A DNA stretch of 59,716 nt from Nitrospirota bacterium (GTDB lineage Bacteria > JACPQY01). A program made the translations under genes and the position numbers. Positions 4,449 to 49,126 of this stretch are shown one piece after another. The stretch covers positions 1 through 59,716 of the forward strand of contig JACPAV010000022.1 in assembly GCA_016180645.1 (NCBI GenBank), written 5' to 3'. Positions within the stretch are counted from its first letter, which is position 1. Every line of letters starts with the position of its first letter. Under the pieces are notes generated by a model that searched no databases, was not told the origin of the DNA, and worked only from the letters and a program-made list of their open reading frames with translations.

Positions 4449-5198
4449 ATGGCCACGAGGAGGCGTTTCACAGGAGCTGGAAAGGCCGCACCGGACGGGG
4501 ATTCAACGCCGAAGTTATGCGACCTGTGCAAGGTGCGCACCCCATGTATCATCGGAAAACTTTCTGCGCTCCCGGATGCCCAGAAGAACTACTCGTTGCC
4601 CGGAGTGCCTCAGACCTTCCGCAAGCGGCAGATCATCTTTCAGACCGGCTCCAAGCCGTACGGCCTCTACGTCGTTTGTTCCGGCCGGGTGAAGGTGTAC
4701 AAGAACACTCCGTCGGGTCGGCTCCTCACCACGCGTATCGCATCGACGGGCGAACTTCTCGGTTATCGAGCCTTCTTCGCCGATGAGACCTACGCGGCCA
4801 ACGCCGAGACTCTGGAGGATACCAGCCTGCGTTTTCTGGACAGGGAAGTCGTTCGTAAGCTGATCCTGACGCAACCCCCGCTGGTTGAAGAAATCCTCCG
4901 CAAGGTCTGCCTGGAACTTCGCTATTCCGAGGACACGCAAGTAGAGCTCCTATACAAGCCGGCGCATGATCGGCTCCGTGGACTCCTGGTCCATCTGGGA
5001 AAAATCTATTCGTCCGACCTGGATCAGAAGGAAGTGGTCATTCCGCTCACCCGGGATGAAATCGCCGATCTGGCCGGTCTCACCTCGGAAACCACCATCC
5101 GACTTCTCCGAGAATTCCAACAGCAGGCCATTGTCGGTACCTCCGGCTACGGCCGACTTACCGTCCACCTCCAAGCCCTCCGCCAGGAAGCCGCGTAG
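4449..5198 (+). CDS. Crp/Fnr family transcriptional regulator with N-terminal Cys cluster
   Basis: CDLCKVRTPC at the N-terminus; cNMP-binding-like domain (LYVVCSGRVKVYK...GELLG); HTH LTRDEIADLAGLTSETTIRLL. Confidence 0.92.
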   Translation: MATRRRFTGAGKAAPDGDSTPKLCDLCKVRTPCIIGKLSALPDAQKNYSLPGVPQTFRKRQIIFQTGSKPYGLYVVCSGRVKVYKNTPSGRLLTTRIASTGELLGYRAFFADETYAANAETLEDTSLRFLDREVVRKLILTQPPLVEEILRKVCLELRYSEDTQVELLYKPAHDRLRGLLVHLGKIYSSDLDQKEVVIPLTRDEIADLAGLTSETTIRLLREFQQQAIVGTSGYGRLTVHLQALRQEAA

Positions 5199-5259
5199 CA
5201 CCCCGCCCCGAATCGATATCCAACCGCATCCGCCTCGTTACCTCCACTCTCGACCCCTG

Positions 5260-5318
5260 GTAGGCGCACCCTTTACGGGTGCGTCCTCGGCAAAGCGCAA
5301 CCTGAAGCTGACGGCTAC
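5260..5318 (-). repeat. GTAG-type REP-like doublet (copy 1)
   Basis: GTAGGCGCACCCTTTACGGGTGCG...CTGAAGCTGACGGCTAC. Its reverse complement aligns with 12423-12478. Confidence 0.75.
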
Positions 5319-5350
5319 CGCAACGATTGGGCACGGGTTCGTCTTTTTCC

Positions 5351-5364
5351 CTGATCTGGATCAT
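5351..5364. promoter_or_regulatory. FNR-like box upstream of the porin gene
   Basis: CTGAT-CTGG-ATCAT, about 49 nt before the ATG at 5413. Confidence 0.55.
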
Positions 5365-5412
5365 AGTAGACATCCATGCGCCGCATCAGACTCCGGGGAA
5401 AAGGAGAGAGCC

Positions 5413-6660
5413 ATGAAACGCAGAATTGTGAGCACAATGTTGACTGTCACGGTCGTATTATTGGGAGGGATTGCGACTGCGCGAGGCGATGCAAAGGTAT
5501 CTCTCCAATATCGGCCGCGGATCGAGAACAAGGGGGCCGGGTACCGAACGCCGAAGACCGAAGGATCTTCCGGCTATCTCGAAGCCTCGCATCGGGCCCG
5601 TCTCGGAATCAAGGCCACCCACCCGGATGTTCCAAATGTCAGCGGCGCCGCCGAGATCCAGGACGTACGATTTTTCGGCGAGGAATCGGACACGCTCGCC
5701 GATTACACCGCCGACACCTTCGATCTCCATCAGGGATTCGTGGATGCGTTCGATGAAATCCGCCACATCGGGATCCGCGTCGGACGGCAGGAACTCAACT
5801 ATGATGAGCACCGGCTGTTGGGTAACGTCGACTGGACGCAGCAAGGCCGATCCCACGACGCAGCGGTCCTTCGCTGGGAATCCGGTGCGTACGCCGCCCA
5901 TCTCGGAGGTGCGAAACACCTGAGCGCCGCTCGACTCCAAGGGGGAACGTACAAGAAAGCCTATCCCTCTTACACGAACTACAACGAACTCCTCTTCCTG
6001 TGGGCGAAAGCGCCCGCCGGACCTGTCTCTGCGAGCTACTACGCGGTGTTTGACACGCCGCCGAAAATCTCGACTCGATTCACCACAGGTCCGCGCCTCG
6101 AATCCTCGGCGGGCGGTATCCAGTCGCGCGCCGAAGCCTACTACCAAATCACGAAACAGCGCGACATGGACCGGGCAAGCGGCTACCTGGTCGGCCTGTC
6201 CGCGGGGAAGTCCTTTTCGGCCGGTCCCACCGGTTACTCCACCACGGCGGCTTACGACTTCAGCTCGCCCGATTTCGGCAGCCTATACCCCACCGCCCAC
6301 AAATGGTTCGGCACGATGGATCTGTTCCTCGCATTCCCCGCCGACACCAACAGCAAAGGCTTGCACGATCCCGCGCTGAAACTGTCGGCGACGGGCACCG
6401 ACTGGAAATTGCTCCTCGACCTGCACTATTTCATGCTGGCTGAAGATGTGAACGGCGAAAAGAATCTCGGCCCGGAAGTGGACATCACACTGCCGGTGAA
6501 GTTCAACAACGTCCTGACGCTCACGGCCGGCGTGAGTGCCTTCTTCCCCGGTCCTGGCATGGAAAACCTGAAAGGAACGACACCGGAGGGTGGGACCTTC
6601 ACACCGGCAAGTCTCGAAACCGGGTACTGGTCGTTCCTTATGTTGGACGCGAAGTTCTGA
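5413..6660 (+). CDS. Alginate-export (AlgE-like) family outer-membrane porin
   Basis: SD AAGGAG then signal peptide MKRRIVSTMLTVTVVLLGGIATARG; motif GRQELNYDEHRLLGNVDW..GRSHD; C-terminal Phe. Start moved from 4966 in the ORF track to 5413. Confidence 0.8.
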   Translation: MKRRIVSTMLTVTVVLLGGIATARGDAKVSLQYRPRIENKGAGYRTPKTEGSSGYLEASHRARLGIKATHPDVPNVSGAAEIQDVRFFGEESDTLADYTADTFDLHQGFVDAFDEIRHIGIRVGRQELNYDEHRLLGNVDWTQQGRSHDAAVLRWESGAYAAHLGGAKHLSAARLQGGTYKKAYPSYTNYNELLFLWAKAPAGPVSASYYAVFDTPPKISTRFTTGPRLESSAGGIQSRAEAYYQITKQRDMDRASGYLVGLSAGKSFSAGPTGYSTTAAYDFSSPDFGSLYPTAHKWFGTMDLFLAFPADTNSKGLHDPALKLSATGTDWKLLLDLHYFMLAEDVNGEKNLGPEVDITLPVKFNNVLTLTAGVSAFFPGPGMENLKGTTPEGGTFTPASLETGYWSFLMLDAKF

Positions 6661-6666
6661 AAGCGC

Positions 6667-6752
6667 CGTGGTTCGACTCGCTCACCACGAGCGGTTTTCC
6701 AGGTTGCATCAGGGTCTGAACCGCTCAACCTGAGCTTGTCGAAGGGGGAGCG
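6667..6752. repeat. Palindromic intergenic element of the TTCGACAAGCTCA type
   Basis: CGTGGTTCGACTCGCTCACCACGAGCGG...CCGCTCAACCTGAGCTTGTCGAAGG; two inverted related halves. Only one copy in this window. Confidence 0.5.
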
Positions 6753-6806
6753 AGGGGAAAGGAATTCCGCGGGAATTCGGGCGAGTCTTCGTGTAGACTC
6801 CGCGCC

Positions 6807-7316
6807 ATGCACTGGCTCTACGAGGCCTCCGTGTGGCTCCACATCGTCGCGGCAGCCGTGTGGCTCGGCGGGATGGTCTTCGTCGGCGCCGTAGTGGTTC
6901 CCGTCTCTCGCAAGCCCGACTTCCAGAAATCGGCCGCGTCCCTCGTGCACCACACCGGGATCCAGTTCCGGCCGGTCGGATGGATCTGCCTCGGCCTCAT
7001 CGCCTTCACAGGCCTTTTCAATCTGTGGTACCGAGGCGTTCGCGCGGAGGACCTTGTGAGCCTCAACTTCTGGCGCATGCCGTTCTCACAGGCACTCGCT
7101 TACAAGCTCATTTTGTTCTATGTCATCCTCGTGATCAGCGCGGTGCATGACTTCTATCTCGGCCCGAAAGCCACCGCGTCCTGGATGGCAGACCCCAATT
7201 CCCCGAAAACGGCAAAGTATAGGAATCTGGCTTCCAAGCTCGGCCAAATCGGACTCCTGATCTCGCTCGCCATCGTGGCCTTCGCCGTGATGATGGTCCG
7301 CGGACTGCCGTGGTGA
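6807..7316 (+). CDS. CopD-like / DUF4149 family 4-TM membrane protein
   Basis: WLHIVAAAVWLGGMVF, LIAFTGLFNL, KL.L....SAVHDFYLGP. Confidence 0.75.
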   Translation: MHWLYEASVWLHIVAAAVWLGGMVFVGAVVVPVSRKPDFQKSAASLVHHTGIQFRPVGWICLGLIAFTGLFNLWYRGVRAEDLVSLNFWRMPFSQALAYKLILFYVILVISAVHDFYLGPKATASWMADPNSPKTAKYRNLASKLGQIGLLISLAIVAFAVMMVRGLPW

Positions 7317-21762: not shown

Positions 21763-22191
21763 ATGCTTGAAAGAACGCGTTGGATCACCGGACCCCTGGC
21801 CTTGTTCGATCTCGGCCTGGGGGGGATCGCCGTCCTCTGGCCGGACGTATACGCGAGCCTCATGCACGGGCCCCTTCACCCTGACGCGTTCGCGCTCATC
21901 CACAGAACCGGCGTCCTTTGGCTCTTCTTTTCGCTCTGCGAGTTCGCCGCGTTCCTGAGGTGCGAAAGATGGCCGGCCACGATCCTCGCCGTTGCAATTC
22001 TTCGCCTGATGGACGTCCCGGCGGACACTGTCTACTTCGTGACCTCCACCACGCTCACCTTCCTGGGCCGATCCTCGCTCCTCATCGCGCCGTTCTTCAA
22101 TCTCGCCGTCGGCGCCTATCTTTTCTCGGCTTGGAAACGCCGACCCACGGCGGCTGCGCCTGGACGCAACCGCCGCCCCGAATCCCGCTGA
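21763..22191 (+). CDS. Hypothetical 4-TM membrane protein
   Basis: Four hydrophobic segments; ends 3 nt before the LysR start. Confidence 0.65.
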   Translation: MLERTRWITGPLALFDLGLGGIAVLWPDVYASLMHGPLHPDAFALIHRTGVLWLFFSLCEFAAFLRCERWPATILAVAILRLMDVPADTVYFVTSTTLTFLGRSSLLIAPFFNLAVGAYLFSAWKRRPTAAAPGRNRRPESR

Positions 22192-22194
22192 TCC

Positions 22195-23088
22195 ATGGAC
22201 ATTCACCAGCTCCGAACATTTCTCGCGGTTCTGGAACACGCCAGCTTTTCCGGTGCGGCGGAAGCCATCCACCTGACGCAATCCACCGTCAGTTTCCACA
22301 TCAAGTCGCTGGAAACCGAGGTCGGAACGCGGTTGATTGATCGCCGCCGCGGAAAAGCGCGTCCCACCGCTGCCGGCCGCACCCTCCAGGAATACGCCGG
22401 CAAGATCGTCTCCCTCCGTGGGGAAGCCATGGCCCGAATGCAATCCGAGCAGCGCGGTGAAGTAGGAACCGTCACCGTCTCGGCCTCCACCATCCCGGGC
22501 GAATACCTTCTCCCCCCCTTTCTCGCCTCGTTCAACCGACTCCATCCAAAGGTCCAAATCGACCTCCGGATTTCGGATTCTCAGCAGGCCCTCCAGGAAC
22601 TCCTCGGCGAGAAATGTGATGTCGCCCTGCTTGGATCGAGGCCGCCGGCCGCCCGGGTGACCTCCGAGCCCTTCGCCCCGGATGACCTCATCCTCGTTGC
22701 GCCTGCTCCCAACCCGTTCACCCCCTGGCCCCGCGTCACCCATGCCGAACTCATGCACGTTCCGCTGATTCTTCGGGAAACCGGCTCCGGAACTCAACGA
22801 GCCACCCTCGAATTCTTCAGGAAGGCTCATCTCGACCCGGGCCGATTCACCCACGCGCTCCGCGTGGGCAGCACCCAGGCCGCCAGGCAGAGCGTGATCG
22901 CGGGCGCCGGCATGACGTTCATTTCGCGATGCGCCGTAGAGACCGACCTACGGGCCGGCGTTCTCACTCGCATCGCGTGTCCCAGGACCCCCATCCGGCG
23001 GCACATCTTCCTCGCCCGGTTGAAGAACGCGACTCTGTCTCTGCCGGCCCGGGCACTCATCGATTTCCTCCGATCACACATTCGATAG
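22195..23088 (+). CDS. LysR family regulator resembling the selenium-metabolism-associated / CysL-like subgroup
   Basis: HTH MDIHQLRTF...SFSGAAEAIHLTQSTVSFHIKSLE; ASTIPGEYLLP; LILRETGSGT. The subgroup call is from recalled motif similarity only. Confidence 0.88.
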   Translation: MDIHQLRTFLAVLEHASFSGAAEAIHLTQSTVSFHIKSLETEVGTRLIDRRRGKARPTAAGRTLQEYAGKIVSLRGEAMARMQSEQRGEVGTVTVSASTIPGEYLLPPFLASFNRLHPKVQIDLRISDSQQALQELLGEKCDVALLGSRPPAARVTSEPFAPDDLILVAPAPNPFTPWPRVTHAELMHVPLILRETGSGTQRATLEFFRKAHLDPGRFTHALRVGSTQAARQSVIAGAGMTFISRCAVETDLRAGVLTRIACPRTPIRRHIFLARLKNATLSLPARALIDFLRSHIR

Positions 23089-23093
23089 TTGAC

Positions 23094-23108
23094 ATCGATA
23101 ATATCGAT
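23094..23108. promoter_or_regulatory. LysR-type T-N11-A palindrome
   Basis: ATCGAT-AAT-ATCGAT perfect inverted repeat, about 10 nt upstream of TTGACG (23118-23123). Confidence 0.65.
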
Positions 23109-23154
23109 ATTACTTTCTTGACGGCGGATCTCCATCAAAGATCAAATACTCCCC

Positions 23155-24195
23155 ATGTCTACTCGATGGACGACCCCCCGCCCCTGGACCCGCCCTTCGG
23201 GGGCTGGATGGCGGGTTGGGCTTGGGTTCCTCGCGGCCTTTTCCTTTGCGGCCGCGTCTGCCCGGGAGCCGGAAATCGAAACGCGCTTGGCCCCCCGGTC
23301 GCGCACATTCGAATTCCGTTACGAGGTCACCCTTCCCGCGCCGGCGGCAGGCACGGCCAAGCTGGAGGCATGGTTGCCTCTTCCCATGGAGGACGATTTC
23401 CAGAAGGTTGAGAAAATCCGAATCGAGGGGGCGGCGGCCGTCGTCGGACGCGACCCCAAGTACGGCAATTCCATGGCCTATATCCGTTTCGATTCAAAGA
23501 ACGGCGCCGCATCCCCCGTCCAAGTCACCCTAACCGCCGACATCACCCGCCTCGAACAAAGGCCCCGTCGAGCCGAGCAAGATGGGGCCGGGCCGACCGC
23601 GGTTCCTGCGCTCTTTTTGCAACCTTCGGAAAAGATGGTTCTGACCGATCCCATCCGAGCCCTGGCGCGCAAGGTGACGCGAGGGAAGGCGTCGGACCTC
23701 GAAAAAGTGCGGGCGCTGTACGAATACGTCGCCGCCTTCATGCGATACGACAAGTCCGGCAAGGGCTGGGGCGAAGGCGATGTAAGATTCTGCCTCCGGG
23801 AAGCGCGCGGAAACTGCTCCGATTTCCATTCCCTCTTCGGTTCCCTCGCCCTAGCCCTCGGGATCCCCGTCCGATTCTCCATCGGCTTCCCCCTGCCGCC
23901 GGACAAACCGGAAGGCGTCATCGGCGGCTACCATTGCTGGGCCGAGGCCTACGTCGCCGGGACGGGCTGGCTTCCGGTGGACATCTCGGAGGCGGACAAA
24001 CATCCGGAGAAACACGATTACTACTTCGGGGCACTGGACGAAAACCGGGTCAGATTCTCCGAAGGACGCGACATTCCCCTCGAACCACCTCCGGCCTCGG
24101 CCAAGGCGCTGAACTTCTTCATCTATCCCCACGTGGAGGCGGACGGCCGGCCGGTGAAGGACGTCACCACGCGGTTCTCCTTCCGGAATCTCTAG
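23155..24195 (+). CDS. Exported transglutaminase-like domain protein
   Basis: Signal peptide; catalytic-triad motifs GNCSDFHSLF, YHCWAEAY and WLPVD. Confidence 0.9.
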   Translation: MSTRWTTPRPWTRPSGAGWRVGLGFLAAFSFAAASAREPEIETRLAPRSRTFEFRYEVTLPAPAAGTAKLEAWLPLPMEDDFQKVEKIRIEGAAAVVGRDPKYGNSMAYIRFDSKNGAASPVQVTLTADITRLEQRPRRAEQDGAGPTAVPALFLQPSEKMVLTDPIRALARKVTRGKASDLEKVRALYEYVAAFMRYDKSGKGWGEGDVRFCLREARGNCSDFHSLFGSLALALGIPVRFSIGFPLPPDKPEGVIGGYHCWAEAYVAGTGWLPVDISEADKHPEKHDYYFGALDENRVRFSEGRDIPLEPPPASAKALNFFIYPHVEADGRPVKDVTTRFSFRNL

Positions 24196-24196
24196 C

Positions 24197-24291
24197 GACG
24201 GGGCCGTAGCTGGGCTACCTCCCGACTGCAAATCGGGCAGCGGTTGACTTCAACGTCGCCGGGTGGGTTCGACTCCCATTCCCCGTCTGCA
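24197..24291 (+). tRNA. Non-canonical tRNA-Sec-like tRNA with GCA (Cys) anticodon and U discriminator (selC*-like tRNA-Cys or tRNA-Sec variant)
   Basis: Acceptor GACGGGG/CCCCGTC; D arm GTAGC-TGG-GCTAC; anticodon arm CCCGA-CTGCAAA-TCGGG; ~24-nt variable arm; T arm GTGGG-TTCGACT-CCCAT plus one extra T; discriminator T24288; CCA not encoded (GCA follows). Confidence 0.8.
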
Positions 24292-24390
24292 CGTTCGATC
24301 CCGACCCCCACGATGGGGGAAGTGCCGCGGGAGGGCAGGATGCCCGGAGCGGCCCATCCCCCGTCTCCGCCGATTTACGCTTCTCCCTAT

Positions 24391-24426
24391 TATCTGTAAC
24401 ATCTGATATATCTGATTACACAGATA
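24391..24426. promoter_or_regulatory. 9-bp-period ATCTG repeats upstream of the AbrB/HgcC-like gene (probable operator)
   Basis: TATCTGTAA-CATCTGATA-TATCTGATT followed by the inverted ACAGATA. Confidence 0.55.
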
Positions 24427-24433
24427 TATCAAA

Positions 24434-24480
24434 GGCCATGTTCCATGCCGCGCCGTCCATGGCGCGGCGACCGATCATGG
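24434..24480 (-). repeat. 47-bp dispersed hairpin repeat (copy B)
   Basis: Reverse complement is 41/47 identical to 7398-7444. Confidence 0.85.
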
Positions 24481-24513
24481 CCCCTTACCATCCTATGAAA
24501 GGGGAGGTGTTCG

Positions 24514-24795
24514 ATGAAACGGACACGATCGAAAACCGAAGGCGCGTGCTGCGCGCCGGGAACCGACATCACGGGTTGTTGCAAAGTGGAGGCCGTCGTC
24601 CCCATCGATGAGCGGGGACAAATGGTCCTCCCCAAAGAGGTCCGGGACAAAGCCGGGATCAAAGCGGGCGACAAGCTCGCCGTCATCAGTTGCGGGACCG
24701 GCAGTCCCATCGGCTGCCTCTGCGTCGTGCGGGCGGACGCCATGGGCGGGATCCTGAAATCCTTCCTCGGCCCCCTGCTCAAGGATCTGGTGTAG
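24514..24795 (+). CDS. AbrB/MazE/SpoVT-type regulator of the HgcAB-associated (HgcC-like) family
   Basis: GCCKVEAVVPIDERGQMVLPKEVRDKAGIKAGDKLAVISC; two CC pairs; SD GGAGG. Confidence 0.8.
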   Translation: MKRTRSKTEGACCAPGTDITGCCKVEAVVPIDERGQMVLPKEVRDKAGIKAGDKLAVISCGTGSPIGCLCVVRADAMGGILKSFLGPLLKDLV

Positions 24796-24797
24796 TC

Positions 24798-25493
24798 ATG
24801 ACGGCACCGGCCATGACGCACGGGATGATCGAGGCCCAAGCGCCGCCCCAGACCATCCGCAGGGTCTACAACTTCTGGAGCCTTTTCTACGGCACGCTGG
24901 CGGCCCCTCTCGAACGAAAGCCGCGGCTGCGAGGTCTGGACCTCGCAGCCGTCAAGCCCCGGGAAAAGATCCTCGAAGTCGCCGTGGGGCCCGGCGCCAC
25001 GTTCTTGGAGATCCTCAAGCGTGTCGATCAATCCACAGTTGTATCCGGCGTGGATCTCTCTCCTCGGATGCTTGACACCACTCGGCGGGCGGCCACACGC
25101 GCGGGCTACGACAACGTCGACCTGCAATTGGCCGACGCACGCCGGCTCCCCTTCGCCGACGGGTCGTTCGATGTCCTGTACAACAGCTACATGCTGGACT
25201 TGATCCCGCTGGATGAACTTGGGGGCATCCTTTCCGAGTTCAAGAGGGTGCTGCGGCCGGGCGGTCGAATGGTCCTGGTCAACATGAGCAAGTCGAGCGG
25301 AGAAGACCGGACCTTCTGGGAGCGCCTCTATCTTGCCGCCCCGAAGAGCTGGGTACCCTATCTGTTCGGTGGATGCCGTCCCGTTCTCATGGAGGGTCCG
25401 TTGAAACACACGGGATTCCGCGAGGTGAAACGTGAATTCATCGCGGGACCGCTTCCCTCGGAAATCGTAGGCGCAAGAAAACCGGCGTCTTGA
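24798..25493 (+). CDS. Class I SAM-dependent methyltransferase (UbiE-like)
   Basis: ILEVAVGPG, GVDLSPRML, ADARRLPFADGSFD, RVLRPGG; starts 2 nt after the upstream stop. Confidence 0.9.
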   Translation: MTAPAMTHGMIEAQAPPQTIRRVYNFWSLFYGTLAAPLERKPRLRGLDLAAVKPREKILEVAVGPGATFLEILKRVDQSTVVSGVDLSPRMLDTTRRAATRAGYDNVDLQLADARRLPFADGSFDVLYNSYMLDLIPLDELGGILSEFKRVLRPGGRMVLVNMSKSSGEDRTFWERLYLAAPKSWVPYLFGGCRPVLMEGPLKHTGFREVKREFIAGPLPSEIVGARKPAS

Positions 25494-46352: not shown

Positions 46353-47738
46353 ATGACGCGAGCCGAAGAGAATCCTCTCAGGACCCTTCCGCAGGTTGAG
46401 ACGCTAGCCAATGAAGTGCTGGAGTCCTACCCGGCGCTGCTGAAGAGCGTGGCCGTGGATGTGGCCCGTGAGGTGATCGAAGACGCGCGCACACAACTCC
46501 GAAAGGGGCGCAACGGGCTGACGGAAGGCGTATTGCTCCGTCGAGCCGGGGACCACGTTCGCAATCTTCTCTCCGGCGGGCTCCGGCCCGTGATCAACGC
46601 CACCGGAATCATCATTCATACGAATTTGGGCCGGGCGCCGCTTTCTGCAGAAGCCGTCCAGGAGGTCGTGCAGACCGCCGGGAGTTACTCGAACCTGGAA
46701 TTCGATCTCACGCGCGGTGAACGCGGGGAACGCATCAACGCGGTCCGCTCTCTACTGCATGCCGTGTGCGGAGGCGAGGATTCGCTTGTCGTCAACAACA
46801 ATGCGGCGGCCGTCCTCCTCGTTCTCGCAGCGCTGGCCAAAGGAAAAGAAGTCGTCGTCTCGCGCGGCGAACTCGTCGAGATCGGTGGCTCCTTCAGAGT
46901 TCCGGAAGTCATGGAGCAAAGCGGGGCAATCCTTCGTGAGGTCGGCACAACCAACAAGACCCGATTGAAAGACTACGAACAAGCAATCTCCCCGGCTACG
47001 GCCCTCATGATGAAAGCCCACCGGAGCAATTTTCAGGTGGTCGGCTTCACGGAGGAGACTTCGCTTGAGGAACTGGTCGAGCTGGGCCGCAAGAAGAATG
47101 TTCCGGTCTACATGGACCTCGGGAGTGGTGCAGTCCAGCCCTTCACCTTTCCGGGCGTCTCCCGGCGGGAACCGCTGGTCCGTGAGATCGTTTCACAGGG
47201 CACGGATCTCGTGAGCTTCAGCGGCGACAAGATGCTAGGCGGCCCCCAAGCCGGCATCATCATCGGCACGTCCAAGCTGATCCAACAAATCGCTCACCAC
47301 CCGCTGTACCGAGCGCTCCGACCCGACAAAATGACCCTCGCCGCATTGGCCGGCACCCTCCGGCTCTGCCTCACGGGCGGGGAGGCCGCATCCCAAATTC
47401 CTGTCACCGCCATGTTGAACGCTCCTTTGGACGAGCTCCGCCGTCACGCCGAGCAGGTCCGACGAACGGTTCTCAAATCGCGGAAAGACTTGGACTTGGA
47501 AATCGTCGAAGACACTTCCTATGCCGGCGGGGGCGCCCTCCCGATGGAGGCTCTCCCGACCCTTGCCTTGCACCTCAAGCACCCCTCGCTCTCGCCCAAT
47601 TCAATCTCCGATGCACTTCGGATATCCGATCCCCCCGTGATCGGCCGGATCTCGGATAACCGCTTTCTCCTCGACCTCCGGACCGTGTTCCCACGGGAGA
47701 TTCCCGATCTCGCGCGGGCAATCATCGCGCTTTCGTAG
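46353..47738 (+). CDS. selA: L-seryl-tRNA(Sec) selenium transferase
   Basis: VINATGIIIHTNLGRAPL, YSNLEFDL, VVNNNAAAV, SRGELVEIGGSFR, EVGTTNKT, PLP-lysine FSGDKMLGGPQAG. Confidence 0.97.
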   Translation: MTRAEENPLRTLPQVETLANEVLESYPALLKSVAVDVAREVIEDARTQLRKGRNGLTEGVLLRRAGDHVRNLLSGGLRPVINATGIIIHTNLGRAPLSAEAVQEVVQTAGSYSNLEFDLTRGERGERINAVRSLLHAVCGGEDSLVVNNNAAAVLLVLAALAKGKEVVVSRGELVEIGGSFRVPEVMEQSGAILREVGTTNKTRLKDYEQAISPATALMMKAHRSNFQVVGFTEETSLEELVELGRKKNVPVYMDLGSGAVQPFTFPGVSRREPLVREIVSQGTDLVSFSGDKMLGGPQAGIIIGTSKLIQQIAHHPLYRALRPDKMTLAALAGTLRLCLTGGEAASQIPVTAMLNAPLDELRRHAEQVRRTVLKSRKDLDLEIVEDTSYAGGGALPMEALPTLALHLKHPSLSPNSISDALRISDPPVIGRISDNRFLLDLRTVFPREIPDLARAIIALS

Positions 47739-47752
47739 TAGCATCCCTCCCC

Positions 47753-49126
47753 ATGGCCGTGCCCCCTCCTGACAAATCTGAAATCTCAAATCTCAAATCC
47801 CAGTCCGGACCTGCCGGGGTCACCCTCGATACCATCGTGTCCCTCTGCAAACGCCGCGGATTCGTTTTCCAATCCAGTGAAATATACGGCGGGATCGGGA
47901 GCACGTGGGATTGGGGACCGCTCGGCGTCGAGTTCAAACGCAACATCAAAGATGCGTGGTGGAAAGCCATGGTGCATGATCGCGACGACATGGAGGGGAT
48001 CGACGCCGCTATCATCATGAATCCGAAAGTCTGGGAAGCCAGCGGCCACATCGCGGGTTTTCACGATCCCATGGTCGAGTGCAAGGCATGCCATCACCGA
48101 TTTCGAGAGGATCATCTCAAGGAAAAGGGGAAATGCCCGGATTGTGGCGGCGAAGTCACCCCCCCCCGTCAGTTCAGCCTCATGTTCAAGACCAACGTGG
48201 GACCCGTGGAGGACACCTCGGCCATCGCCTACCTCCGCCCTGAAACGGCCCAGGGAATTTTCGTCAATTTTGACAACGTGCTCACCACCTCGCGCCGCAA
48301 GCTCCCTTTCGGCATCGCCCAGATCGGCAAGGCCTTCCGCAATGAAATCACCCCCGGCAATTTTGTTTTCCGCTCGCGCGAATTCGAGCAAATGGAGATC
48401 GAATTCTTCGTCCGTCCCGGCACGGATGAGGATTGGCACCGAAGATGGGTGGAGGACCGGCTCCGATGGTATACCGACCTCGGCATCCGTCCCGAAAGCC
48501 TTCGCAAGCGCGAGCACGGCAAGGACGAGCTGGCCCACTACGCCAAAGCCTGCGTGGACCTTGAATTCGAGTTTCCCATGGGCTGGTCCGAACTCGAGGG
48601 CATTGCCAACCGGACGGACTTCGATCTCAAGCAACACACGAAGTTTTCGGGCAAGACCCTCAGCTTCTTCGATGAAGAAAAGAAGGACCACGTGGTCCCC
48701 TTCGTGATCGAACCGAGCGCAGGGGTTGACCGGAGCGCCCTCGCCTTCCTCGTCCATGCCTACACGGAAGAAAAAGTGAAGGATGAAAAGCGCGTCTCGC
48801 TCAAGCTCCACCCCACCCTCGCACCCATCCAGGCCGCGATCCTTCCTCTCCTCCGGAATCGGCCGGACGTGGTCGAGACGGCCCGGAAACTCTACACCGA
48901 TCTGAAGCGCCGCATTCGAGCACGGTATGACGACACCGGCTCCATCGGCCGCCTCTATCGGCGGCAGGACGAAATCGGCACACCCTTTTGCATCACCGTG
49001 GATGTGCAGACCCTCACCGACCAGAAAGTCACCGTGCGGGACCGCGACACCATGTTACAAGATCGCATCGGATTGGACTCGGTCGGTTCCTACTTGGAAA
49101 CGAAACTCGGCGTCCCAAAAGTCTGA
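47753..49126 (+). CDS. glyQS: Glycine--tRNA ligase, alpha2 type
   Basis: LCKRRGFVF.SSEIYGG, YLRPETAQGIF, AFRNEITPGNFVFRSREFEQME, IEPSAGVDR, IGRLYRRQDEIGTP. Confidence 0.97.
   Translation: MAVPPPDKSEISNLKSQSGPAGVTLDTIVSLCKRRGFVFQSSEIYGGIGSTWDWGPLGVEFKRNIKDAWWKAMVHDRDDMEGIDAAIIMNPKVWEASGHIAGFHDPMVECKACHHRFREDHLKEKGKCPDCGGEVTPPRQFSLMFKTNVGPVEDTSAIAYLRPETAQGIFVNFDNVLTTSRRKLPFGIAQIGKAFRNEITPGNFVFRSREFEQMEIEFFVRPGTDEDWHRRWVEDRLRWYTDLGIRPESLRKREHGKDELAHYAKACVDLEFEFPMGWSELEGIANRTDFDLKQHTKFSGKTLSFFDEEKKDHVVPFVIEPSAGVDRSALAFLVHAYTEEKVKDEKRVSLKLHPTLAPIQAAILPLLRNRPDVVETARKLYTDLKRRIRARYDDTGSIGRLYRRQDEIGTPFCITVDVQTLTDQKVTVRDRDTMLQDRIGLDSVGSYLETKLGVPKV

What the first reader, a model, noticed from the sequence alone, without database searches (positions are those of the whole stretch)
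22195..24291. Candidate new system: LysR-controlled transglutaminase-like gene + atypical tRNA operon
Seen: a perfect ATCGAT-AAT-ATCGAT (T-N11-A) box 5 nt after the LysR stop, then TTGACG and a weak -10 (TCAAAT) ending 7 nt before the ATG of an exported Cys-His-Asp transglutaminase-like enzyme. The tRNA begins 1 nt after that gene's TAG, so co-transcription is nearly unavoidable. Known: LysRs of this sequence type recur beside selenium/sulfur-utilisation genes. Inference: a sulfur- or selenium-responsive unit that induces a specialised Cys/Sec tRNA together with a thiol-dependent enzyme. I know of no description of this gene combination.
Basis: partly seen in the sequence, partly recalled or inferred. 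Interest (0 to 1): 0.78.

Follow-up and report, generated by a model that had tools for sequence, protein, structure and literature searches.

The report
Selenium switch, exported enzyme, mimic tRNA
A selenium-type regulator gene sits in front of an exported enzyme gene, a pairing that recurs in other bacteria, and in this genome alone a rare cysteine tRNA shaped like the selenocysteine tRNA is joined to the end of that gene, which suggests its supply may follow selenium status.

Summary
Three parts need separate verdicts.

1. **The tRNA (24197-24288)** belongs to a described class, selC* tRNA-Cys or tRNAReC. It has a GCA anticodon, U73, a long variable arm and a tRNA-Sec-like body. The genome also has selA, selB, selC and selD.

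2. **The LysR** passes the curated cut-off of the selenium-associated subfamily (LysR_Sec_metab, 259.9 vs 250 bits). It is the only such gene in the genome.

3. **The LysR-to-transglutaminase-like pairing** is the new result, and it is not chance.
   - It recurs in 2 of 44 other LysR_Se loci from 400 diverse genomes, and in 5 of 30 enzyme loci of one other class.
   - That box lies upstream of 9 of those 30 enzyme genes, against 1 background site in 162 kb.

The tRNA is not part of the conserved pair. No such tRNA was found in any comparison set. Co-transcription here is plausible (1-nt gap, no terminator-like site across the junction, hairpin after the tRNA) but not shown.

Verdict: not a conserved three-part system. 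It is a known tRNA class attached to a previously undescribed LysR_Se target.

The parts
21763..22191 (+). 142-aa hydrophobic ORF. It ends 3 nt before the LysR start and is possibly co-transcribed with it. No family match.
   Evidence: no Pfam or NCBIfam hit
22195..23088 (+). LysR_Se: selenium metabolism-associated LysR regulator. It is the only one in the genome.
   Evidence: Pfam HTH_1 + LysR_substrate. NCBIfam NF040786, 259.9 bits against a cut-off of 250. Own-genome search gave 1 match over the cut-off.
23094..23108 (.). Perfect palindrome ATCGA-TAATA-TCGAT, the probable LysR_Se operator.
   Evidence: Aligns with ATTGA-N5-TCAAT boxes in 6 homologous loci. The box stands upstream of 9 of 30 enzyme genes in another class, against 1 background site in 162,286 nt.
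23089..23094 (+). TTGACA directly after the LysR stop. With TACTTT at 23111-23116 (16-nt spacer) it is an alternative promoter that would enclose the operator.
   Evidence: read from the sequence; not listed by the scan; inference
23118..23147 (+). TTGACG, 18-nt spacer, TCAAAT: putative promoter. The -10 ends 7 nt before the ATG, which implies a leaderless or near-leaderless mRNA.
   Evidence: Homologous loci have TTGAC + N17-18 + TAnnnT right after the box. Not listed by the consensus scan.
23155..24195 (+). Exported two-domain transglutaminase-like Cys-His-Asp enzyme (346 aa with the ATG start).
   Evidence: PF01841. C221/H260/D276 invariant. AlphaFold model pLDDT 88.4. Best fold match 3ISR, E 1.3e-16, and the TgpA periplasmic domain 6G49.
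24197..24288 (+). selC*-type tRNA-Cys (tRNAReC class): GCA anticodon, U73, long variable arm, 8/5-like acceptor/T branch with a C8.U mismatch.
24312..24365 (+). GC-rich hairpin after the tRNA, the likely end of the transcription unit. Its 3' arm repeats 14 of 15 nt of the tRNA 3' end.
   Evidence: fold of 24289-24440: -56.2 kcal/mol, z -3.1, 0 of 200 shuffles as stable. Repeat found.

Best explanation
The locus joins a conserved two-gene regulatory unit to a lineage-specific passenger.

**The conserved unit.** LysR_Se is the selenium-status LysR subfamily (HrsM in methanogens). I propose that it binds the 15-bp palindrome next to the promoter of an exported transglutaminase-like thiol enzyme gene and controls that gene. 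I put this at about 0.75.

**The passenger.** It is a tRNAReC / selC* tRNA-Cys, a cysteine tRNA built on a selenocysteine-tRNA body. Published work on this class says it is charged by CysRS, carried by SelB, and puts Cys at UGA+SECIS sites. I put class membership at about 0.85.

**The link between them.** The tRNA starts 1 nt after the enzyme's stop codon. No terminator-like site spans the junction, no promoter-like site was found in front of the tRNA, and a strong hairpin follows it. The tRNA is therefore most likely cut out of the same transcript, which would tie its supply to LysR_Se and so to selenium status. I put this at about 0.5.

**Shown:** the sequence features, the family memberships, the recurrence of the LysR_Se-to-enzyme pairing and of its box, and the Sec machinery in the genome.

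**Inferred:** binding, the direction of regulation, co-transcription and processing, charging and SelB use, and what the enzyme does.
For: **tRNA**
- ARAGORN calls Cys-GCA, 92 nt.
- It is the second-best tRNA-Sec match in the genome: 47.2 bits, behind the true selC at 73.3 bits. All other hits score 42.5 bits or less.
- After the acceptor strand comes T (U73).
- The stretch running from the end of the variable arm through the T arm is 21 of 22 identical to the genome's own selC.
- selA, selB, selD (with 1 in-frame TGA) and a single cysS are present.
- It meets the operational tRNAReC criteria of PMC13582414: at least 80 nt, GCA or UCA anticodon, discriminator U.

**LysR_Se**
- NF040786 scores 259.9 bits against a cut-off of 250. 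It is the sole copy.
- The family's neighbours elsewhere are SelB (4 loci), SelD-like (2), YedE-type, NifS-like + TusA, FdhD (2) and DsrE. This fits Lin 2015.

**Pairing with the enzyme**
- An enzyme homolog lies directly downstream on the same strand in 2 of 44 other LysR_Se loci from 400 diverse genomes.
- A LysR lies upstream in 5 of 30 enzyme loci in the class of G354. The 4 of those 5 that were scored, together with G354's own LysR, give 285.7-316.2 bits on NF040786.
- Linked and box-bearing enzymes fall in three separate parts of the enzyme tree (quick tree).

**Box**
- Conserved sequence and position.
- Present at 9 of 30 enzyme loci against 1 background site in 162,286 nt.
- Similar boxes lie upstream of LysR_Se genes in 6 other loci.

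**Transcription unit**
- 1-nt gap.
- No terminator-like site at the gene-tRNA junction and no promoter-like site in the 3' part of the enzyme gene.
- Hairpin after the tRNA.
Against: - No RNA data exist for this organism, so co-transcription is not shown.
- The tRNA is absent from every other LysR_Se-to-enzyme locus examined (0 of 44, 0 of 30), and from the 96 genomes of that class by two searches.
- 0 of 37 metagenomic long tRNA-Cys loci carry the LysR, the enzyme or the box. About half of these have less than 1.5 kb upstream.
- 2 of 400 diverse genomes have such a tRNA. Neither has LysR_Se nearby or at E <= 1e-60.
- In the window the box is 9 nt away from TTGACG instead of abutting it, and the -10 is weak.
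- The pairing is a minority state. It holds for 1 of 35 enzyme copies in the diverse sample and 0 of 31 in genome contigs.
- One of the two diverse-sample cases (L221) is a 1.6-kb contig whose LysR carries 4 stops.
- The tRNA is atypical. It has a C8.U mismatch and a 5-bp D stem with a 3-nt loop, and its Rfam score is only at threshold. Its fold z-score is -1.46, with 18 of 200 shuffles as stable.
- No box resembling the operator was found near selA, selB, selC or selD.
Confidence: 0.5

Rival explanations
1. Neighbours only. LysR_Se controls the enzyme gene, but the tRNA has its own unrecognised promoter inside the 3' end of the enzyme gene. It landed there by chance or by rearrangement, and its expression is independent of selenium status.
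For: - The tRNA is missing from all other LysR_Se-to-enzyme loci.
- Long tRNA-Cys genes elsewhere often sit 13-50 nt behind unrelated same-strand genes: DGOK in 3 loci, a 5'-nucleotidase, an MFS transporter, a PALP enzyme. Tight spacing is therefore common for this class and need not mean shared regulation.
- Promoter rules for this lineage are unknown.
Against: - A 1-nt gap leaves no room for a terminator.
- No promoter-like site was found in 24000-24196.
- Earlier notes of this scan report the same regulator type and an operator in front of tRNAReC genes in two other genomes. I did not check those notes.
Confidence: 0.33
2. Decaying paralog. The tRNA is a degenerating duplicate of selC and is no longer functional.
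For: C8.U mismatch, shortened D arm, Rfam score only at threshold (47.2 against 47), fold not more stable than shuffles.
Against: - The anticodon loop CUGCAAA, the T loop, the 7 Watson-Crick acceptor pairs, U73 and G1:C72 are all intact and mutually consistent with Cys identity.
- Random decay would not produce both Cys identity marks together.
Confidence: 0.08
3. It is a true tRNA-Sec with a sense anticodon. It would be charged with Ser, converted by SelA, and would insert Sec at UGC/UGU codons that carry a SECIS.
For: [quoted passage not shown]
- The long variable arm could attract SerRS. Mukai 2017 counts U73 as acceptable for SerRS in allo-tRNAs.
Against: - U73 together with GCA are the main CysRS identity elements.
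- The genome already has a normal selC(UCA), and its selD uses TGA.
Confidence: 0.05
4. One reading: a dedicated, conserved three-gene sulfur/selenium system in which regulator, thiol enzyme and special tRNA work together.
For: All three parts have a selenium or thiol connection and lie on one strand within 2.1 kb.
Against: The three-part combination was found nowhere else in any set searched.
Confidence: 0.04

Closest known systems
selC* tRNA-Cys / tRNAReC (Mukai et al. 2017, NAR, PMC5389517, passages read; Vargas-Rodriguez et al. 2018, RNA Biol, not held, known here only through passages of PMC13582414 and PMC7609411)
   Same: tRNA-Sec-like body, long variable arm, U73, GCA anticodon. It coexists with a canonical selC and complete selABD.
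   Different: - The lineage was labelled Nitrospirae/Nitrospirota by earlier notes of this scan, but its GTDB phylum holds only 2 genomes.
- The architecture is 8/5-like with a C8.U mismatch, not the 8/4 form with an A51a bulge described for delta-proteobacteria.
- No selB* or cysS* lies next to it (single selB and single cysS).
- It is fused to the end of a protein gene that stands behind a LysR_Se operator.
LysR_Se subfamily / HrsM (Lin et al. 2015, GBE, PMC5322559, passages read; NCBIfam NF040786)
   Same: It passes the curated cut-off. It occurs in a Sec-using genome. Family members sit next to selenium genes.
   Different: - Here it is not next to selA, selB or selD (selA lies 23 kb away).
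- Its apparent target is a transglutaminase-like gene. That paper mentions such a gene only as a STRING associate of YedF.
- No operator is mentioned in the passages I read.
Bacterial transglutaminase-like putative cysteine proteases (PDB 3ISR, Cytophaga hutchinsonii; TgpA periplasmic domain, PDB 6G49)
   Same: Two-domain fold: an N-terminal beta domain plus a transglutaminase core with a Cys-His-Asp triad.
   Different: Sequence identity is only 16-20%. No function is known for 3ISR. No selenium link has been described for these proteins.
tRNA genes co-transcribed with protein genes, such as the E. coli tufB operon (recalled, not checked here)
   Same: A tRNA and an mRNA on one transcript, separated by RNase processing.
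   Different: Here the tRNA lies 3' of the ORF with a 1-nt gap. It is a recoding tRNA, not a housekeeping one.

Membership tests
selC* tRNA-Cys / tRNAReC | tRNA-Sec-like architecture: extended acceptor/T branch, long variable arm, long D stem with a small loop | tested here: met
   - Rfam tRNA-Sec 47.2 bits against a gathering score of 47.
- The cloverleaf has 7 Watson-Crick acceptor pairs plus a C8.U eighth pair, a 5-bp T stem, a variable region of about 25 nt containing a roughly 7-bp stem, and a 5-bp D stem with a 3-nt loop.
- The match is marginal: one mismatch, and a D arm one pair shorter than usual.
selC* tRNA-Cys / tRNAReC | Discriminator U73 and a GCA or UCA anticodon | tested here: met
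selC* tRNA-Cys / tRNAReC | Coexists with canonical selC and the Sec machinery | tested here: met
   selC 73.3 bits; selB 369.8, selA 556 and selD 356.9 bits, all over their cut-offs
selC* tRNA-Cys / tRNAReC | Charged by CysRS, bound by SelB, recodes UGA+SECIS as Cys | not testable with these tools
   Needs biochemistry or an E. coli reporter.
LysR_Se (NF040786 LysR_Sec_metab) | Score over the curated equivalog cut-off | tested here: met
   259.9 bits against 250. The margin is narrow. The next-best family, CbbR, scores 171.9 against 450.
LysR_Se (NF040786 LysR_Sec_metab) | Found only in SelD-containing, mostly Sec-decoding organisms (Lin 2015) | tested here: met
LysR_Se (NF040786 LysR_Sec_metab) | Subfamily-specific conserved proline in the substrate-binding domain (Lin 2015, supplementary figure S5) | not tested
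   The supplement was not read, so the position is unknown to me.
Transglutaminase-like superfamily (PF01841) | Pfam domain over the gathering score, and a Cys-His-Asp triad | tested here: met
   90.3 bits against 23. C221, H260 and D276 invariant in 20 of 20. Fold match to 3ISR.
   No case found in any set.

The most novel reading that the evidence does not exclude
LysR_Se acts as a selenium switch that produces one RNA carrying two things. One is the message for an exported thiol enzyme, possibly used to capture or release selenium outside the cell. The other is the Cys-for-Sec tRNA. When selenium runs short, the cell would then both scavenge selenium and let SelB put cysteine at UGA so that selenoprotein mRNAs are still completed. 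This would be a transcriptional control of genetic-code reading by nutrient status. It would also make the transglutaminase-like family a new member of the selenium regulon across several bacterial lineages.
Probability: 0.25. Interest if true: 0.75.

Novelty: new variant of a known kind. Interest (0 to 1): 0.5.

Why it matters
Why cells keep tRNAReC is unsettled. A 2026 paper says the division of labour between tRNA-Sec and tRNAReC remains unclear (PMC13582414, passage read).

This locus places such a tRNA physically behind a selenium-type regulator and its operator. That makes 'tRNAReC is made when selenium is short' directly testable with a gel shift and a reporter.

Separately, the work adds two things to the poorly known LysR_Se regulon. 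One is a candidate operator, ATTGA-N5-TCAAT next to the -35 element. The other is an unexpected target, an exported transglutaminase-like thiol enzyme. One literature search for the three terms together found only Lin 2015, where the enzyme type appears only in a STRING table.

Tried and rejected
- **RNA evidence.** No RNA holder was listed for 22195-24600. Only 4 DNA runs of one groundwater study hold it.
- **Close relatives.** The GTDB phylum holds only G000 and G001. G001 is 84% complete.
  - It has no tRNA-Sec match over the cut-off, no LysR match and no selA.
  - It shares only the DUF362 gene (75% identity), with no synteny around it.
  - Gain or loss of the block therefore cannot be read.
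- **Same tRNA in relatives.** A DNA search in 40 relatives gave only a 28-nt chance match.
- **Regulon prediction in G000.**
  - The exact palindrome with up to 3 mismatches gave 159 sites, none within 600 nt of selA, selB, selC or selD.
  - The degenerate box gave 53 sites against 6.2 expected. Only the one at 23094 has an all-A/T spacer.
  - The box is too short to predict a regulon in this GC-rich genome.
- **Integration scar.** I considered the repeat of the tRNA 3' end at 24353 as an integration scar. It is the 3' arm of the hairpin 78 nt downstream, not a distant attachment-site copy.
- **Enzyme function.** NCBIfam gave no hit. The PDB sequence search gave only 3ISR at E 0.0022. The fold search gave proteins of unknown or general function.
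- **Other steps.**
  - The careful tree search did not finish, so only the quick tree was used.
  - Vargas-Rodriguez 2018 is not held.
  - No covariance model of the metagenomic tRNAs was built. They had been picked with a pattern taken from this tRNA, so the test would have been circular.
Full report
**1. What is in the sequence**

The window is one whole contig (C24) of a 4.7-Mb, 65-contig genome. DNA runs that hold it come from a single groundwater study. Earlier notes of this scan call the organism an uncultured Nitrospirae/Nitrospirota bacterium (not checked). In the GTDB set its phylum holds only this genome and one other.

On the plus strand lie, in order:
- a 142-aa hydrophobic ORF (21763-22191)
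- a LysR gene (22195-23088)
- a 66-nt A/T-rich spacer (39% G+C)
- a transglutaminase-like gene (23155-24195)
- one base, then a 92-nt tRNA (24197-24288)
- a GC-rich hairpin (24312-24365)

**2. The tRNA**

- ARAGORN reads Cys-GCA.
- Rfam places it in tRNA-Sec at 47.2 bits, with a gathering score of 47.
- In the whole genome it is the second-best tRNA-Sec match. The true selC on C57 scores 73.3 bits and every other tRNA 42.5 bits or less.
- The genome has a normal 75-nt tRNA-Cys on C18, plus copies in two tRNA arrays.
- The cloverleaf has 7 Watson-Crick acceptor pairs and a C8.U eighth pair, a 5-bp T stem, a long variable arm, a 5-bp D stem with a 3-nt loop, and T at the discriminator position.
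- The stretch running from the end of the variable arm through the T arm is 21 of 22 identical to the genome's own selC. This suggests descent from selC.
- Most tRNAs of this genome do not encode CCA, so its absence here means nothing.
- selA (in this window, 46353-47735), selB, selD (with one in-frame TGA) and a single cysS are present.

This is the published class selC* tRNA-Cys. Mukai 2017 gives its marks as U73, a GCA or UCA anticodon and a tRNA-Sec-like shape, always with complete Sec machinery (passages). The class was later named tRNAReC. A 2026 paper summarises it as decoding UGA as Cys when a SECIS follows, for both anticodon types (PMC13582414 passages). The 2018 primary paper is not held.

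The lead to the name tRNAReC, and to the point that a GCA anticodon can serve at UGA, came from earlier notes of this scan.

**3. The regulator**

- The LysR passes the curated cut-off of NCBIfam NF040786, 'selenium metabolism-associated LysR' (259.9 against 250 bits).
- It is the only such gene in the genome.
- Lin 2015 defined this subfamily (LysR_Se, HrsM in archaea). The paper found it only in SelD-containing, mostly Sec-decoding organisms (passages).
- In 400 diverse genomes I found 44 other loci over the cut-off.
- Their neighbours include SelB (4 loci), SelD-like genes (2), a YedE-type transporter, NifS-like + TusA, FdhD (2), DsrE, rhodanese and ATP sulfurylase.

**4. The pairing with the enzyme gene is real**

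*Tests centred on the enzyme.* My first tests spoke against any linkage.
- 0 of 31 enzyme-homolog loci from genome contigs had a LysR or a long tRNA. These were mostly Acidobacteriota, Myxococcota and Planctomycetota.

*Tests centred on the regulator.* These changed the picture.
- 2 of the 44 other LysR_Se loci have an enzyme homolog directly downstream on the same strand: G354 and G229. G229 is weak evidence, because it is a 1.6-kb contig whose LysR carries stops.
- In the class of G354, 40 of 96 genomes carry the enzyme.
- Of 30 loci fetched there, 5 have a LysR upstream. In 3 it is directly upstream, in one there is a 600-nt gap, and in one a PBP-like gene lies between.
- The 4 of those 5 that were scored, together with G354's own LysR, give 285.7-316.2 bits on NF040786.
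- In the diverse sample the enzyme occurs in only 32 of 400 genomes, 35 copies in all. An immediate neighbour by chance would be expected in far fewer than one of 44 loci.

*Caveats.*
- The class-level cases are related to one another. Still, they span five GTDB families and two deep enzyme clades, and the window's enzyme lies in a third part of the tree (quick tree only).
- The pairing is a minority state even so. It holds for 1 of 35 copies in the diverse sample.

**5. The operator**

The spacers after the LysR stop align.
- The window's ATCGA-TAATA-TCGAT matches ATAGA-TAATA-TCAAT, ATTCA-AAATA-TCAAT, ATTGA-AAATA-TCGAT, ATTTA-AAAAA-TCAAT and ATTGA-TGATT-CCAAT.
- In those loci the box is followed at once by TTGAC(A/T/C), 17-18 nt, and a TAnnnT -10.
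- A scan for the box (at least 8 of 10 positions) followed within 2 nt by TTGAC found it upstream of 9 of the 30 enzyme genes of that class. Several of these have no LysR within 1.5 kb. Only 1 further site lies in 162,286 nt of the same loci.
- The same scan found 1 distant site (1.26 kb upstream) among 31 genome-contig loci.
- Similar boxes stand 58-164 nt upstream of LysR_Se genes in 6 other loci.

In the window the box is 9 nt from TTGACG rather than abutting it. That is about one helical turn, placing its centre near -54 instead of about -43 (my arithmetic). A second TTGACA lies directly before the box. I therefore cannot say whether the regulator activates or represses here.

The window has no Shine-Dalgarno sequence. 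Its -10 ends 7 nt before the ATG, which suggests a leaderless message. Homologs do have GGAGG.

**6. The enzyme**

- The family is large: 1355 hits at E <= 0.001 among 8000 scored candidates. The best non-self hit is 49% identical.
- Cys221, His260 and Asp276 are invariant, as are a GWGxGD motif and Cys261.
- The model (pLDDT 88.4) has an N-terminal helix, a beta domain and the transglutaminase core.
- Its best fold matches are the putative cysteine protease 3ISR (E 1.3e-16, TM 0.70 on the target) and the periplasmic domain of TgpA.
- No homolog has an in-frame stop, so there is no Sec form.
- In the other class the enzyme gene is often followed by a DUF2064/CofC-like gene (7 of 14 loci annotated). 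In two loci the LysR is preceded by a DUF3343 'Se/S carrier' gene.
- Its substrate is unknown. A role in selenium capture outside the cell is a guess.

**7. Is the tRNA part of the unit?**

*As a conserved part: no.* No long tRNA-Cys was found in any of the following:
- the 44 LysR_Se loci at +-5 kb, one of which has a true selC 1.1 kb downstream
- the 30 class loci
- the 96 class genomes, by Rfam search or by pattern

The reverse tests agree.
- 37 long tRNA-Cys(GCA) genes from metagenome contigs have neither the LysR, the enzyme nor the box. Their neighbours are varied.
- The 2 such tRNAs among 400 genomes lie in genomes without a LysR_Se match at E <= 1e-60.

*In this genome: co-transcription is the simplest reading.*
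- The gap is 1 nt.
- There is no terminator-like site at the junction and no promoter-like site in front of the tRNA.
- A strong hairpin follows the tRNA.
- The only convincing LysR_Se box of the genome lies in front of this unit.

Nothing here shows the RNA.

**8. Verdict**

The regulator type, the operator, the control of the enzyme gene and the nature of the tRNA hold. It is wrong that this is a conserved new three-part system, and wrong that the tRNA is undescribed.
- The new results are the LysR_Se-to-transglutaminase-like pairing with its operator, and a tRNAReC riding on that unit in one lineage.

Noticed in passing
window 24404-24431 and 24514-25493: A perfect 11-bp-arm palindrome (TGATATATCTG-ATTACA-CAGATATATCA) stands before two genes. 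The first is an AbrB-type gene that passes the NCBIfam cut-off for 'HgcAB-associated protein HgcC' (99.8 against 70 bits) and has an N-terminal CC...GCC motif. The second, 3 nt later, is a UbiE/ArsM-like methyltransferase. This is probably a separate metal(loid)-responsive unit. I did not look for hgcA or hgcB.
   Followed up: partly
genome contigs C21:21779-25649 and C29:62471-67783: Two dense tRNA arrays of about 30 genes each. They include a tRNA with a TTA anticodon (called 'Stop') and a 93-nt tRNA with an ATT anticodon. The genome has 104 tRNA genes in all.
   Followed up: no
window 46353-49123: selA is followed, 17 nt later, by a class-II aminoacyl-tRNA-synthetase-like gene (tRNA-synt_2b + HGTP_anticodon).
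   Followed up: no
L228 (G104:C6) 4998-7033: LysR_Se (41% identical to the window's), then a GT2 glycosyltransferase gene, then a true selC 1.1 kb downstream. The layout is the same as in the window, but with the real tRNA-Sec.
   Followed up: partly
L265, L278, L264, L266, L267, L269, L275 (class of G354): The transglutaminase-like gene is followed by a DUF2064/CofC-like gene in 7 of 14 loci annotated. A DUF3343 'Se/S carrier' gene precedes LysR_Se in L265 and L278. PBP_like_2 genes flank the enzyme in L269 and L271.
   Followed up: partly
Most belong to one sequence family beginning GGCCGG or GACCGG. Three sit 13-14 nt behind a 2-keto-3-deoxy-galactonokinase gene, two are followed by FlpD/MvhD genes, and one lies between two PALP (cysteine-synthase-type) genes.
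   Followed up: partly
genome contigs C6:10831-10918 and C43:10283-10377: ARAGORN calls two further over-long tRNAs, Arg-CCG (88 nt) and Thr-GGT (95 nt). Their arms are poorly paired, so they may be false calls or allo-tRNA-like genes.
   Followed up: no
window 23155 vs 23287: The public gene call for the enzyme is 302 aa, which would start at TTG 23287 and lack the N-terminal hydrophobic segment (P0001). Homologs align over the longer 346-aa form.
   Followed up: partly
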